Assembly (NCBI GenBank): GCA_034780895.1
Contig: JAUZTB010000062.1
Location: 14,861,934-14,925,933, forward strand
DNA from: Rhynchobatus australiae
Taxonomy: Eukaryota
Length of the DNA: 64,000 nt
Reading direction: 5' to 3'
Position numbers: made by a program. Of this stretch, positions 1 to 64,000 are shown one piece after another (the first letter of the stretch is position 1; every line of letters starts with the position of its first letter).

Positions 1-3000
1 GGGGATCTAAGAAGGGGAAGTTTTTCCAGATAGAGAGTGGTTGGAATCTGGAATGTGCTGCCTGAGGAGGTAGTGGAGGCAGATACTTTCACAATGTTTA
101 AGAAGCAACTAGACGAACACTTAGATTGCTGAGGCATAAAAGGCTACGGATGAAATGCAAGTAAATGGGATTAGTGTAGGCAAGTACAATGATCAGCTTG
201 GACACGCTAGGTTGAAGGTCCTGCTTCTGTGCTTCCTGCTTCATAGGAAGGTACTGCTTCCTGCTTCATAGGAAGCCACTATACATACTGAACCATAGTT
301 TTCTAATTCTGTAAATTGTAAGGATACAAACATCAAAACGTGTTATAACCCAATTTGCCTGTGCCTTGTGGCAAAAGTGATCTTCTGAAAGTATTCAAGT
401 ACAGAACGTTAAGGATAAAATTCATCTTTGGCAAGGGCAAAGGTGTGAAATAGTAAAAGTTAATCTGGTGGGATGTCCAACAGGGGTGGATCTGCTTTCA
501 CTCGTTTTGCACTCCTGCTGTACTTAAACCTTGCTCCAGTTAAAGTTATTTGCATACACTTACTTGCATTGGCAAAATGTAGCCTCCTCGCACATGGACA
601 TTTATAGTATCCAAGGGTGCCTGTAGTACAATGTACTGGCCTTTGCTATGAACAGCAGAGCCCTAAACATTGAAATATACAGGATGAGACACAGATAGAG
701 ATATTAAAATGGAGACAAATTTATAGCTGCACACACAGAGATAAGAACACTAGGTACACACTGGGGTTAATCTATTTAACTATGTGATCAACTATATAAC
801 TTCCAGGCTGTAGAGAAGTAGATTTTGAATGGAGTTGAAAACTCCCAGCACGGGATATTTCATCGCAGTTGTTTTACAATTCCTTCGAGTGGAACATTTT
901 TAATGAACACTGCCCCCCCCAATGTTGACTGACTACAACAGAAAAAGTCTGCGTAATAATTAGCTTGGTTGATAGCTTCGACGAGCACACAGACTTGAGG
1001 AGAGGCATGAAATGGGCCACTGCACAAATCAGCAAGGTCTTATTTGAATGACATCTCAGATCAAGCTGTGACACAAATGTAGGCACAGTAAACATGGGAT
1101 AACTGATGTAGTACACCATCCATAATCACACATTGCAAGGTTCAAGAATGGGAGATGTATGACTCACTTACATTGTACAGATCATACCATGTAGTTGAGG
1201 GAAAATAGGCAGACACTACCACTGTTTTAGGCTCTAATACTGGAGTGACAAGAAGGGCCTCCCCCAACATGAACTGACGATCAATGCTCCAGGTACCTAG
1301 ATCTTGAGAGAATCTAAATCCAAGAAAGAGAATGTTTATTTTTCTGTATAACACCAACACAATTGATAGAAGAGTTCATACGAAGTTACTTTGTTTTTTT
1401 TAAACTGTAAAATGTATATCAAAATAGATATTTTAATACTTCCCACANNNNNNNNNNNNNNNNNNNNNNNNNNNNNNNNNNNNNNNNNNNNNNNNNNNNN
1501 NNNNNNNNNNNNNNNNNNNNNNNNNNNNNNNNNNNNNNNNNNNNNNNNNNNNNNNNNNNNNNNNNNNNNNNNNNNNNNNNNNNNNNNNNNNNNNNNNNNN
1601 NNNNNNNNNNNNNNNNNNNNNNNNNNNNNNNNNNNNNNNNNNNNNNNNNNNNNNNNNNNNNNNNNNNNNNNNNNNNNNNNNNNNNNNNNNNNNNNNNNNN
1701 NNNNNNNNNNNNNNNNNNNNNNNNNNNNNNNNNNNNNNNNNNNNNNNNNNNNNNNNNNNNNNNNNNNNNNNNNNNNNNNNNNNNNNNNNNNNNNNNNNNN
1801 NNNNNNNNNNNNNNNNNNNNNNNNNNNNNNNNNNNNNNNNNNNNNNNNNNNNNNNNNNNNNNNNNNNNNNNNNNNNNNNNNNNNNNNNNNNNNNNNNNNN
1901 NNNNNNNNNNNNNNNNNNNNNNNNNNNNNNNNNNNNNNNNNNNNNNNNNNNNNNNNNNNNNNNNNNNNNNNNNNNNNNNNNNNNNNNNNNNNNNNNNNNN
2001 NNNNNNNNNNNNNNNNNNNNNNNNNNNNNNNNNNNNNNNNNNNNNNNNNNNNNNNNNNNNNNNNNNNNNNNNNNNNNNNNNGGGGGGATCTCATTGAAAC
2101 CTAGTGAGAGAGTCTAGGACCACAGGGCACATCCTCAGAATAGAAGGACATCCCTTTGGAACAGAGATGAGGAGGAATTCTTCAACCAGAGGGTGGTGAG
2201 TCCGTGGAATTCATTGCCACAGATGGCTATGGAGGCCAAGTCATTGGGTACATCTAAAGCGGAGGTTGATAGGTTCTTGATTAATGAGGGCGTCAAAGGT
2301 TATGGGGAGAAGGCAGGAGAATGAGGGTTAAGAGGGAAAAATAAATAAGCCATGACTGAATGGCAGAGCAGTCTCGAAGGGCTGAATGGCCTAACTCTGC
2401 TCCTAGGTCTTATGGTCTAAAATAACCAATGGTACATACACTCATAGATATACTTAGAAACATTTTATGGAACTGTGTCTGTATCTCATAGTTGAATTTC
2501 TAAACTCAGGTATGCTACCTAGAACATTAGAAAGTGGAACAGGAGTACACCATTCAACAGTCTGAGCATATTCTGCCATTCAATAAGACCATAGCTGACC
2601 TGGTGCTTCCTATCTACTGTACTGATTCCCAAAATATTCTGATTCCCAAATATATTCTTTTCCAGTTTAAATCTACTTAATAATTGAGCATCAGTAGGCT
2701 TCTTCTGCAGAGAATTCCAAAGATTCACAATCTTCAAAACATTTTCTTTATCTCAGTCCTAATTCCTGACTACTTCTAGGCTCTTGATAGATAAATAATG
2801 TTTTACTATGTACCTTGTCAATTCCTCTCAAAACTTTTTCTTTTAAGTTTCTGATAGTGCAGGTCCACCCTACTCAGTCTTTCATCACAGGACAGTCCCC
2901 TCATCCCATTTAACAAGCCTTAATTGCATCACCTTGGAGGCAACTATATTTTTTGTTTACAAAGGAAACTAGAACTGAATGCAGCACCAAAGCCTGAACA

Positions 3001-63000: not shown

Positions 63001-64000
63001 GGCATAAAATCAATGAGATGAATGCCCTCCTAAGTCATAAGGAAATAAAACAAAATTCTGCCTTGCAGCAGGTGGTTCTCCACTGAACCAGCACCTGGTC
63101 AGTCAGCCCGTTCAAACACAACTTCATAATAAACTGACTACAGGCAACCCCCACGTTATGGCTGTTTGGGTAGCAGAAATTCACCCTTACAGAATTCACA
63201 AATCACTACCTAAAAATTTGAGATATGGAATAAAGTTCACTCTTATGGAATTTGAGGAATAAAGTAAATAAATAAAGATAATTTTCTTTTAGCAACTCGC
63301 ATTTCTCAATGCATGGTTCACATTATGGAAAATTAAGATAGAGACCGATATGTAGGAATGCAACCCCACCCCAGTAGCATGGGGGTTGCCTGTATGTAAT
63401 CACAACTAACAACAATTGTGGCTTGTCACGCTATATTTGTGCCCACACACCGATAACGAGTTATCTGCTTGAAATTAATAGTATTTTCTAACAGATCAAT
63501 CAAAATATTGAATGGAACTGTATTCTAAGAGGTATTATTCAAAACAACTATTAGTACTTTATTTAACCATCGGCTTTTCAAAAGGTTTGATTTTATTTCT
63601 TCACGTAAAGAAGATTTGACAAAAGTGCAATTAATAATGAGTAAATGGAAATTCCAACTTTATAGTTTAAGTTTCTCTTTGCTACACTGACCCGTCCTAT
63701 TAACGGTTGACCTGTTTCATTCTTGATAAAGACACCTCTCTTGACACCAACGTCGTATGGTTTGTATTTCCCTGGTGTCTCTGCACTGCTGATGCCAGAA
63801 TCCTATAACAAAATGAAAAAATGCCATAAGTATTCTTGAAGGAAAAGGAACCATGATGCCTCTCTTCAGACATTAAAACTAAGCTTCAAAATGGTCACTC
63901 GCCATTGGCGTTGCTACAATAGAGAAATCTCAGGGCTGGGGAGAGCTAAGAAGCCAAAGAATAGCTTCATCACATCCAACAGGAGGTGATGAGAGTTTAT

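What the first reader, a model, noticed from the sequence alone, without database searches (positions are those of the whole stretch)
564..63802. Tandem duplication of acid alpha-glucosidase (GAA), with both copies apparently under purifying selection
Seen: two same-strand GAA copies about 18 kb apart, with exons 9, 10, 12-14, 16 and 17 present twice. A hand alignment of exon 13 gives about 17/134 nt differences but only 2 amino-acid changes. No stop or frameshift occurs in any visible exon. Known: human GAA is single-copy. As I recall, the second gaa genes of fish and birds are older and more divergent, which needs checking. Inference: this is a lineage-specific GH31 expansion, possibly parallel to the separate SI/MGAM duplications. 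Further copies may lie beyond either edge.
[Added by the scan's program, not by the reader: the finding's places include an assembly gap (unread letters, written N; its length is only estimated) at 1448 to 2081, 3154 to 3163, 5689 to 5892, 7216 to 7315, 9274 to 9661, 12873 to 13173. Whether the letters on both sides are continuous or in frame is not known: test that first.]
Basis: partly seen in the sequence, partly recalled or inferred. Interest (0 to 1): 0.7.

Follow-up and report, generated by a model that had tools for sequence, protein, structure and literature searches.

The report
Two tandem ray acid alpha-glucosidase genes

Summary
Two GAA (GH31) genes lie head to tail on the minus strand. 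Copy B has exons 9-20 at 63802-48592. Copy A has exons 2-17 at 30006-564. About 18.6 kb separates them. Exons 9, 10, 12, 13, 14, 16 and 17 are present twice. All 26 visible exons are open, with AG/GT borders wherever the borders are readable. Over the seven shared exons, dS is 0.71, dN is 0.10 and omega is 0.14.

The window comes from a batoid, and the duplication is old. Copy A is the ortholog of one paralog group (Narcine, Leucoraja, Mobula hypostoma). Copy B is the ortholog of the other (Leucoraja, M. birostris, Hemitrygon). The split therefore predates crown rays and skates. Sharks and chimaera showed one GAA cluster each. Neither copy belongs to an ancient vertebrate GAA2 clade.

Both copies keep the visible catalytic residues. 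The copy-A group shares W376F and W746L (human numbering).

Three gaps hide exon 11 of A, exon 15 of B and two exon ends.

The parts
29485..30006 (-). Copy A exon 2, coding part (ATG at 30006; 522 nt). It encodes a hydrophobic N-terminus and a trefoil (P-type) domain.
   Evidence: Pfam Trefoil PF00088 E=8.7e-11. This exon alone falls in the type-1 clade with 100* support.
27035..27180 (-). Copy A exon 3 (146 nt)
   Evidence: AG/GT borders, open frame.
21761..21926 (-). Copy A exon 4 (166 nt)
   Evidence: Weak Pfam PF13802 match, below cut-off.
20310..20406 (-). Copy A exon 5 (97 nt)
19070..19189 (-). Copy A exon 6 (120 nt)
16719..16837 (-). Copy A exon 7 (119 nt), start of the GH31 barrel. It has F where human GAA has W376.
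   Evidence: PF01055 E=6.9e-11. Ungapped match to human GAA chain 9gsv_A residues 360-397. Column inspected.
14079..14210 (-). Copy A exon 8 (132 nt). The D404 and I441 equivalents are kept.
   Evidence: PF01055. Match to 9gsv_A residues 399-442.
11482..11592 (-). Copy A exon 9 (111 nt)
10425..10538 (-). Copy A exon 10 (114 nt). The W481 and W516 equivalents are kept.
   Evidence: PF01055. Match to 9gsv_A residues 480-517.
9274..9661 (.). N run that must hide copy A exon 11, which carries the catalytic nucleophile. The exon is not readable.
   Evidence: No exon-11 match anywhere in the readable copy-A sequence. The run starts 38 nt upstream of exon 12.
9118..9235 (-). Copy A exon 12 (118 nt). 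It carries S560T and Q563L relative to the vertebrate consensus.
   Evidence: Match to 9gsv_A residues 547-584. Columns inspected.
7779..7912 (-). Copy A exon 13 (134 nt). It keeps R600, W613 and the acid/base D616 (HWTGD).
   Evidence: Match to 9gsv_A residues 586-629. PF01055.
6675..6826 (-). Copy A exon 14 (152 nt). D645, F649 and H674 are kept.
   Evidence: Match to 9gsv_A residues 632-676. PF01055 E=1e-19.
4929..5077 (-). Copy A exon 15 (149 nt)
   Evidence: PF01055.
1172..1313 (-). Copy A exon 16 (142 nt). It has L where human GAA has W746.
   Evidence: PF21365 E=1.3e-14. Match to 9gsv_A residues 731-776. Columns inspected.
564..662 (-). Copy A exon 17 (99 nt). Exons 18-20 lie beyond the left edge of the window.
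30007..48591 (.). Stretch between the stop of copy B and the ATG of copy A (18,585 nt, eight N runs). No GAA pieces, no Pfam-matching frames and no CpG island are visible in it. A non-coding first exon and the promoter of copy A should lie here but were not located.
48592..48654 (-). Copy B exon 20, coding part (60 nt plus TGA). An AATAAA starts at 48570, 22 nt after the stop.
50113..50265 (-). Copy B exon 19 (153 nt)
51506..51670 (-). Copy B exon 18 (165 nt)
54125..54223 (-). Copy B exon 17 (99 nt)
55101..55242 (-). Copy B exon 16 (142 nt). The W746 equivalent is kept.
   Evidence: PF21365 E=1.6e-15. Column inspected.
58226..58917 (.). N run that cuts the 3' part of copy B exon 14 (including the H674 position) and may hide exon 15.
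   Evidence: No exon-15 match in the readable copy-B sequence. Gap context.
58918..59020 (-). Copy B exon 14, the readable 103 nt. D645 and F649 are kept.
   Evidence: PF01055.. Register taken from copy A exon 14.
59578..59711 (-). Copy B exon 13 (134 nt). R600, W613 and D616 are kept.
   Evidence: PF01055 E=2.9e-12..
60802..60913 (-). Copy B exon 12, the readable 112 of an expected 118 nt. Its end is cut by N run 60702-60801.
61084..61168 (-). Copy B exon 11 (85 nt). It starts with the catalytic nucleophile D518 in DMNEPSNF.
   Evidence: Ungapped match to 9gsv_A residues 518-545.
61653..61766 (-). Copy B exon 10 (114 nt)
   Evidence: PF01055 E=5.7e-10.
63692..63802 (-). Copy B exon 9 (111 nt). 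Exons 1-8 lie beyond the right edge of the window.

Best explanation
The window is a piece of a ray or skate (batoid) genome, not human. It carries two separate, head-to-tail genes for lysosomal acid alpha-glucosidase (GAA, glycoside hydrolase family 31).

The genes are paralogs from one old tandem duplication. That duplication happened before skates, electric rays and stingrays/mantas diverged. It most likely happened after the ray lineage split from sharks. Copy A belongs to paralog group 'type 1' and copy B to 'type 2'.

Both copies have been kept by purifying selection. Each most likely still encodes a retaining alpha-glucosidase that releases glucose from glycogen and maltooligosaccharides by the usual two-aspartate double-displacement mechanism.

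Shown: the gene layout, the orthology, the sequence constraint, and conservation of the visible catalytic residues.

Inferred: enzymatic activity, lysosomal location, independent transcription, true adjacency across the N runs, and some division of labour between the two enzymes. Type 1 is the copy that has drifted slightly at conserved positions (W376F at the substrate pocket, S560T, W746L).
For: Layout and intactness:
- 26 exons, all open, with canonical borders and consistent phases.
- The exon lengths match those I recall for human GAA. That is a recollection, not a tool result.

Family:
- Per-exon Pfam hits to Trefoil, the GH31 barrel and the GH31 C-terminal domain.
- Per-exon ungapped matches to human GAA structures.
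- The catalytic roles of D518 and D616 and the pocket residues come from passages of PMC5653652.
- D616, R600, W613, D645, F649, W481 and W516 are kept in both copies.
- D518 and M519 are kept in B.
- D404, I441 and H674 are kept in A.

Taxon and orthology:
- The best named hits are elasmobranch GAAs.
- Summed by hand from the table: copy A is identical to Leucoraja type 1 at 658 of 767 residues and to Leucoraja type 2 at 604. Copy B is identical to type 2 at 373 of 422 and to type 1 at 334.
- Diagnostic columns: copy A matches type 1 at 30 of 32 (1 type-2 state, 1 neither). Copy B matches type 2 at 13 of 13.
- Exon 2 of A alone sits in the type-1 clade at 100*.

Reference trees:
- Type 1 and type 2 are each supported at 100/100.
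- Together they form a batoid clade at 85/89, next to a shark clade, with chimaera outside.
- A profile search of the 5.8-billion-protein set listed 120 best hits. The chondrichthyan ones were exactly 12 clusters: two for Leucoraja, one for each other batoid species, and one per shark and chimaera species.

Age and selection:
- dS 0.71, dN 0.10, omega 0.14 over 268 codons.
- Only exons and short flanks still align between the copies.
- Invariant positions are kept at 179 of 182 (A) and 101 of 101 (B).
- Protein rates are symmetric, 25 against 19 unique changes, p = 0.45.

Linkage:
- The two Leucoraja proteins are listed on a contig of the same length, 35,584,021. This fits linkage in a second species.
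Against: - The batoid-only timing is not firmly established. The clade joining both types has 85/89 support. A tree with sharks plus type 2 as one clade is not rejected (AU p = 0.125).
- Copy A's nucleophile exon (11), copy B's exon 15 and the H674 position of B are hidden in N runs. Exons 1-8 of B and 18-20 of A lie outside the window. Intactness of either gene is therefore not proven.
- Adjacency rests on a scaffold with eight N runs between the genes.
- Omega between paralogs averages over both lineages and over a long time. It cannot exclude a recent loss of constraint in this species.
- No expression data were available.
- 'One cluster per shark' comes from clusters at 90% identity of annotated proteins. 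Unannotated or nearly identical shark copies would be missed.
Confidence: 0.85

Rival explanations
1. The duplication is older than the shark-ray split (elasmobranch stem). Sharks later lost the type-1 copy, and the shark gene is the ortholog of type 2 (copy B).
For: - The tree holding sharks plus type 2 together is only 7.5 log-likelihood units worse and is not rejected (p-AU 0.125).
- The branch uniting both batoid types is short (0.022) with 85/89 support.
- In C-terminal exon 19, shark proteins are closer to copy B (34-40 of 51) than type-1 batoid proteins are (27-30 of 51).
Against: - The best trees from two taxon sets and two search modes all join type 1 with type 2.
- Where all five sharks agree, they share the type-1 state at 6 diagnostic columns and the type-2 state at 2. 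That gives no signal tying sharks to type 2.
- No shark type-1 protein appeared in three searches.
Confidence: 0.15
2. This is a recent duplication private to this species or genus, which is the plain reading of 'lineage-specific expansion'.
For: Two same-strand copies sit close together. Some exons are very similar: exon 10 differs at 13 of 114 nt and exon 13 at 17 of 134 nt.
Against: - Each copy is closer to its ortholog in other batoid orders than to its neighbour.
- dS is 0.71.
- Introns are unalignable between the copies.
Confidence: 0.01
3. Assembly artefact. The two genes are real paralogs, but their adjacency, order or spacing is a scaffolding error. Alternatively, one 'copy' is an uncollapsed haplotype.
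For: There are 28 N runs in 64 kb, eight of them between the genes. The gap lengths are only estimates.
Against: - A haplotype is excluded by 17.7% exon divergence (144 of 815 nt) and by the distinct orthologs.
- Exon order, strand and phase are collinear across all 20 gaps that lie inside the genes.
- Both Leucoraja paralogs are listed on a contig of one and the same length.
Confidence: 0.07
4. One copy is a dying or dead gene. The exon hidden in a gap (A exon 11 or B exon 15), or an exon outside the window, is deleted or broken.
For: - Exon 11 of A and exon 15 of B are not found in readable sequence.
- Type 1 carries changes at otherwise invariant positions, including W746L.
- Human W746C is listed as a common late-onset Pompe variant (search listing and title of PMC4411720 only).
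Against: - Both missing exons fall where an N run sits at the expected place.
- There is no stop, frameshift or lost splice site in 26 exons.
- W746L, S560T and W376F are shared by type-1 proteins of three other batoid orders. They are old and have been maintained.
- There is no rate asymmetry.
- F or Y at position 376 also occurs in caecilian, newt and bamboo-shark GAAs.
Confidence: 0.05
5. The two units are halves of one double-domain MGAM/SI-like gene rather than two genes.
For: MGAM and SI are tandem GH31 duplications fused into one protein. MGAM chains also match the exons.
Against: - Copy B ends in TGA, with AATAAA 22 nt downstream.
- Copy A starts with its own ATG, hydrophobic leader and trefoil exon, 18.6 kb further on.
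- Identity to elasmobranch GAAs is 71-98% per exon, against about 40-45% for the MGAM/SI proteins.
Confidence: 0.01

Closest known systems
Annotated batoid paralog pair 'lysosomal alpha-glucosidase / -like' (Leucoraja erinacea P0005 and P0008; Narcine bancroftii; Mobula hypostoma; M. birostris; Hemitrygon akajei)
   Same: Copy A is the type-1 ortholog and copy B the type-2 ortholog. The domain set is the same. Type 1 shares W376F, S560T and W746L.
   Different: The window's proteins are identical to none of these. They are about 86-88% identical to the Leucoraja orthologs, so the window comes from another batoid species. In the four literature searches I made, no paper describes this pair.
Human lysosomal acid alpha-glucosidase (GAA; PDB 5NN3, 5KZW, 9GSV)
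   Same: The exon-by-exon matches are ungapped. The catalytic D518 and D616 and most pocket residues are kept (PMC5653652 passages). The trefoil, barrel and C-terminal domains are the same. The exon lengths are the same as I recall them.
   Different: Exon 17 is 99 nt here against about 150 nt as I recall for human. Type 1 has F at position 376 and L at position 746.
Bird GAA I / GAA II
   Same: This is a second, independent case of a vertebrate lineage keeping two GAA genes. Functional divergence is predicted between the bird copies (PMC6487185 passages). GAA I is the gene whose loss causes quail Pompe disease (PMC12386088 passages).
   Different: It is a different lineage and a different duplication event. 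Both batoid copies nest inside the chondrichthyan GAA clade. I did not have labelled GAA II sequences to place in the tree.
MGAM and SI (intestinal GH31 double enzymes)
   Same: They share the GH31 fold and arose by tandem duplication of a GH31 unit. The residue aligned with GAA W376 is index 299 in the NtMGAM chain and index 327 in the NtSI chain. As I recall from Sim et al. 2010, which I did not see here, those are Tyr299 and Trp327, and they are linked to substrate preference.
   Different: Those duplicates are fused into one membrane-anchored protein. Here there are two separate GAA-type genes, and identity to MGAM/SI is only about 40-45%.

Membership tests
Glycoside hydrolase family 31 (GH31), GAA-type | [quoted passage not shown] | tested here: met
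   Tested exon by exon. A7, A8, A10, A13, A14 and A15 and B10, B13 and B14 all score above the 23.5-bit cut-off.
Glycoside hydrolase family 31 (GH31), GAA-type | Catalytic nucleophile Asp (human D518, WIDMNE motif) | tested here: inconclusive
   Copy B: met. Exon 11 starts with D aligned to residue 518 of 9gsv_A. Copy A: exon 11 lies in N run 9274-9661 and is unreadable. The W516 just before it is present.
Glycoside hydrolase family 31 (GH31), GAA-type | Catalytic acid/base Asp (human D616, HWTGD motif) | tested here: met
   Both copies have HWTGD. Residue 31 of exon 13 aligns to 616 of 9gsv_A. The residue's role is taken from PMC5653652.
Glycoside hydrolase family 31 (GH31), GAA-type | Subsite -1 residues listed for human GAA (D404, R600, H674, W376, I441, W516, M519, W613, F649) | tested here: inconclusive
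   Copy A keeps D404, I441, W516, R600, W613, F649 and H674. W376 is F, and M519 is hidden. Copy B keeps W516, M519, R600, W613 and F649. Positions 376, 404 and 441 are outside the window, and H674 is in a gap.
Lysosomal GAA subfamily (as against MGAM/SI/GANAB) | Single GH31 unit with an N-terminal trefoil domain, and closest to GAA proteins | tested here: met
   Trefoil domain in A exon 2. Copy B has its own stop and copy A its own ATG. All best named hits are GAA. The N-terminus of B is outside the window.
Batoid GAA type 1 / type 2 paralog groups | Shares the residues that are fixed within one group and different in the other | tested here: met
   Copy A matches type 1 at 30 of 32 columns. 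Copy B matches type 2 at 13 of 13. A exon 2 falls in the type-1 clade at 100*.
   Both paralog groups sit inside elasmobranch GAA, with chimaera and then bony vertebrates outside (99-100 support). Caveat: no sequence labelled GAA2 or GAA II was in the tree.
Functional (expressed, active) gene pair | Transcription of both copies and alpha-glucosidase activity at acid pH | not testable with these tools
   No RNA data and no assay were available. Only sequence constraint was measured.

The most novel reading that the evidence does not exclude
Rays and skates have kept, for their whole crown history, a second acid alpha-glucosidase (type 1, copy A) whose substrate pocket and proximal beta-domain were remodelled early. 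The changes are W376F, at the position that differs between maltase- and isomaltase-type GH31 enzymes, together with S560T and W746L. W746 is otherwise invariant in vertebrates and is a Pompe disease site in humans.

On this reading, type 1 is not a redundant lysosomal GAA. It is an enzyme with shifted linkage or substrate preference, or with a different tissue or compartment. W746L would show which second-site context makes loss of that tryptophan harmless.
Probability: 0.2. Interest if true: 0.45.

Novelty: new member of a known kind. Interest (0 to 1): 0.3.

Why it matters
GAA is the Pompe disease enzyme and is usually treated as a single-copy housekeeping gene. This window adds a clean case of a very old retained tandem pair in rays and skates. 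A bird GAA I/II pair is already known, and frogs appear to have pairs as well.

The pair gives a natural experiment on what a second lysosomal alpha-glucosidase is kept for. It also provides natural substitutions at two positions of medical and enzymological interest (376 and 746, human numbering).

For genome annotation, the result says that batoid 'GAA-like' genes are two orthology groups that should be named apart. It is not a surprising mechanism, and the genes are already predicted in public genomes.

Tried and rejected
- Other genes or RNAs in the window: Rfam found 0, the tRNA scan 0 and the tandem-repeat scan 0. Ten long non-GAA frames had no Pfam match. No CpG island was visible.
- Extra GAA fragments or pseudo-exons: none beyond the 26 exons. 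The only other hit, at 8523-8594, has E = 0.8 and is a chance-level match.
- Hidden exons: relaxed TBLASTN for exon 11 in copy A and exon 15 in copy B found nothing in readable sequence.
- Gene conversion as the cause of the very similar exons 10 and 13: not supported. pS is 0.41-0.45 in those exons, in line with most of the others (range 0.29-0.58). Their similarity comes from low pN.
- W376F as a sign of lost function: rejected. F or Y occurs at that column in three caecilian GAAs, one newt GAA and one bamboo-shark GAA.
- 'GAA2' in the literature: the hits listed concern human Pompe disease and human GAA, and I take 'GAA2' there to be a human allele name (recalled; the passages were not opened). 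None concerns a second GAA gene.
- Not run because they need a joined spliced model: full-length fold, fold search, a whole-protein tree including the window's copies, and codon models on a concatenated CDS.
- Not run because not needed: complex prediction, the representative-protein search and the protein atlas.
The genome collection on offer holds only bacteria and archaea, so shark and ray genomes could not be scanned.

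
Full report
**What the window is.** The 64-kb window has 28 runs of N (6,283 letters), 37.8% G+C and a CpG observed/expected ratio of 0.20. 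That profile fits a vertebrate short-read scaffold. The best named protein matches of its exons are elasmobranch lysosomal alpha-glucosidases. I take the window to be from a ray or skate, not from a human. It is identical to none of the reference species.

**Checking the observation.**
- An all-against-all BLASTP of every stop-to-stop frame gave seven collinear minus-strand pairs about 51-54 kb apart.
- TBLASTN with two shark GAA proteins, followed by inspection of each border, gives two genes on the minus strand.
- Copy B runs from exon 9 (63802) to the TGA ending at 48592. Its exons 1-8 lie beyond the right edge.
- Copy A runs from its ATG at 30006 (exon 2) to exon 17 ending at 564. Its exons 18-20 lie beyond the left edge.
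- The stop of B and the ATG of A are 18,585 nt apart, counting 1,477 N in eight runs.
- Exons 9, 10, 12, 13, 14, 16 and 17 are present twice.
- Exon 13 differs at 17 of 134 nt and 2 of 44 residues.

**Gaps, tested first.**
- 25 of the 28 runs lie in introns or between the genes.
- Run 9274-9661 starts 38 nt upstream of A exon 12, and exon 11 of copy A is nowhere in readable sequence. That exon is hidden there or lost.
- Run 58226-58917 abuts B exon 14 after 103 of an expected 152 nt. It is the likeliest place for B exon 15, which is also not readable.
- Run 60702-60801 removes the last 6 nt of B exon 12.
- Across all gaps, the order, strand and reading phase of the exons are as expected. With phases derived only from cumulative exon lengths, all 26 exons translate openly into GAA-like peptides.
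- All readable borders are AG/GT.
- For the two hidden exons I assumed the length of the other copy's exon.
- Continuity across any N run cannot be shown from the window. I did not fill or look up any N.

**What was left out.** No full-length protein, fold, whole-protein tree of the window's copies or concatenated codon model was made. Per-exon counts were summed instead.

**Family.**
- Exon by exon, Pfam finds the trefoil domain in A exon 2.
- It finds the GH31 barrel in A7, A8, A10, A13-A15 and in B10, B13 and B14.
- It finds the GH31 C-terminal domain in A16 and B16.
- Each exon tested matches human GAA structures without gaps. This gives human numbering through the 952-residue chain 9gsv_A.
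- According to passages of PMC5653652, D518 is the nucleophile and D616 the acid/base. The same passages list D404, R600, H674, W376, I441, W516, M519, W613 and F649 as lining subsite -1.
- Both copies keep W481, W516, R600, W613, D616, D645 and F649.
- Copy B keeps D518 and M519.
- Copy A keeps D404, I441 and H674.
- Copy A's D518 and copy B's H674 are hidden in gaps.
- The exon lengths (146, 166, 97, 120, 119, 132, 111, 114, 85, 118, 134, 152, 149, 142, then 165 and 153) equal those I recall for human GAA exons 3-16, 18 and 19. That is a recollection, not a tool result.

**Age and orthology.**

*Exon identities.* Per-exon identities (summed by hand) show that each copy is closer to one of two batoid protein groups than to its neighbour.
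- Copy A is identical to Leucoraja 'a' at 658 of 767 residues and to Leucoraja 'b' at 604.
- Copy B is identical to 'b' at 373 of 422 and to 'a' at 334.

*Diagnostic columns.* I defined diagnostic columns as those where three type-1 references (Narcine, Leucoraja a, Mobula hypostoma) agree, three type-2 references (M. birostris, Leucoraja b, Hemitrygon) agree, and the two groups differ.
- Copy A has the type-1 state at 30 of 32 columns, with one type-2 state and one neither.
- Copy B has the type-2 state at 13 of 13.
- Exon 2 of A alone falls in the type-1 clade with 100* support.

*Reference trees and AU tests.* These used database proteins only.
- Trees of 43 and of 18 named GAAs both recover type 1 and type 2 as fully supported clades.
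- The two types join in a batoid clade (88 SH-aLRT; 85/89), beside a shark clade, with chimaera and bony vertebrates outside.
- An AU test does not reject sharks plus type 2 as a clade (p = 0.125).
- It weakly rejects sharks plus type 1 (p = 0.020).

*Timing.* The duplication certainly predates the split of skates, electric rays and stingrays. It probably, but not certainly, postdates the shark-ray split.

*Copy number in sharks.* A profile search listed only the 12 known chondrichthyan clusters among its 120 best hits, with one per shark and chimaera species. This is moderate evidence for a single copy in sharks. It is limited by 90% clustering and by what has been annotated.

**Selection.**
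- Over the seven shared exons (815 nt, 268 codons) there are 144 nt and 52 residue differences.
- pS is 0.457 and pN 0.095, giving dS 0.71, dN 0.10 and omega 0.14 (Nei-Gojobori with Jukes-Cantor correction, counts summed per exon).
- Only exons and short flanks align between the copies.
- Of the columns invariant in 40 non-batoid vertebrate GAAs, copy A keeps 179 of 182 and copy B 101 of 101.
- With the shark majority as outgroup, 25 changes are unique to A, 19 are unique to B and 8 are unresolved (p = 0.45).
- Neither copy looks like a decaying gene.
- Retention of both types in several batoid orders is the strongest argument that each is under constraint.

**A lead on divergence.**
- The three departures of copy A from invariant columns are S560T, Q563L and W746L.
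- S560T and W746L are fixed in all three type-1 references. They are the only type-1-specific changes at the 213 columns that are invariant in all 40 non-batoid GAAs. Type 2 has one such change.
- All type-1 proteins and copy A also have F at W376, a pocket residue. Type 2, four of five sharks, the chimaera and 30 of 34 other vertebrates have W. Three caecilians also have F, and a newt and a bamboo shark have Y.
- The substitution at 376 is therefore tolerated in GAAs for which I saw only one protein per species here.
- Position 376 aligns with index 299 of the NtMGAM chain and index 327 of the NtSI chain. As I recall, these residues have been tied to substrate preference. I did not see that paper. 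PMC8323934 passages list Trp327 only among the SI residues that contact bound inhibitors.
- Human W746C appears in the listing and title of PMC4411720 as the commonest variant in Chinese late-onset Pompe patients (listing only).
- These points suggest, but do not show, that type 1 has shifted in function.

**Comparison with what is known.**
- Two GAA genes in one lineage are known from birds as GAA I and GAA II. Passages of PMC12386088 and PMC6487185 cover them. The supplementary tree of PMC6487185 could not be seen.
- The frog references also split into two groups, and Bombina has two proteins on a contig of one length.
- Four searches for a description of an elasmobranch GAA duplication found nothing.
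- The genes themselves are already predicted in public batoid genomes.

**Verdict.** This is a real, old, retained tandem pair of GAA genes shared across rays and skates. It is a new member of a known kind, of modest interest. The type-1 substitutions at positions 376 and 746 are the only feature that might repay experiments.

Noticed in passing
window 34-129, 2118-2321, 6335-6520, 15667-15859, 21139-21246, 28890-29016: Short frames similar to one another occur on both strands in introns of copy A (35-69% identity over 26-40 residues in the BLASTP pairs). This is probably an interspersed repeat family. There was no Rfam or Pfam match.
   Followed up: no
window 3454-3644 vs 57262-57454; 21250-21356 vs 52705-52812; 3830-3904 vs 62749-62823 (all inverted); 4345-4393 vs 50532-50580 (direct): Non-exonic stretches shared between the two gene regions at 70-88% identity, most of them in opposite orientation. 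They are most likely dispersed repeats rather than remnants of the duplication.
   Followed up: no
window 7729-7987 vs 59529-59775: The alignment around exon 13 runs about 75 nt into the upstream intron and 50 nt into the downstream intron (259 nt, 79% identity). Elsewhere the introns do not align. These may be conserved splicing elements.
   Followed up: no
window 564-662 and 54125-54223 (exon 17 of both copies): Exon 17 is 99 nt in both copies, shorter than the roughly 150 nt I recall for human GAA. The Carcharodon 'isoform X3' reference skips this stretch altogether (residues 765-813, then 816-868).
   Followed up: partly
reference proteins P0017, P0023 vs P0036; P0135 and P0145: Frogs also show two GAA groups. 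One is a 'like' clade of Pseudophryne and Mixophyes, set apart from the ordinary Mixophyes GAA. Bombina bombina has a GAA and a GAA-like protein on a contig of the same length. Duplication of GAA therefore seems to recur in vertebrates.
   Followed up: no
reference protein P0013 (Chiloscyllium plagiosum), column of human W376: This shark GAA reads CQYGYF where other sharks read CRWGYW. It also has the longest shark branch in the tree (0.16).
   Followed up: no
window 30007-33100: No CpG island or recognisable first exon is visible upstream of copy A's ATG. Two N runs (31745-32394 and 32942-33041) lie within 3 kb of it and could hide a promoter.
   Followed up: partly
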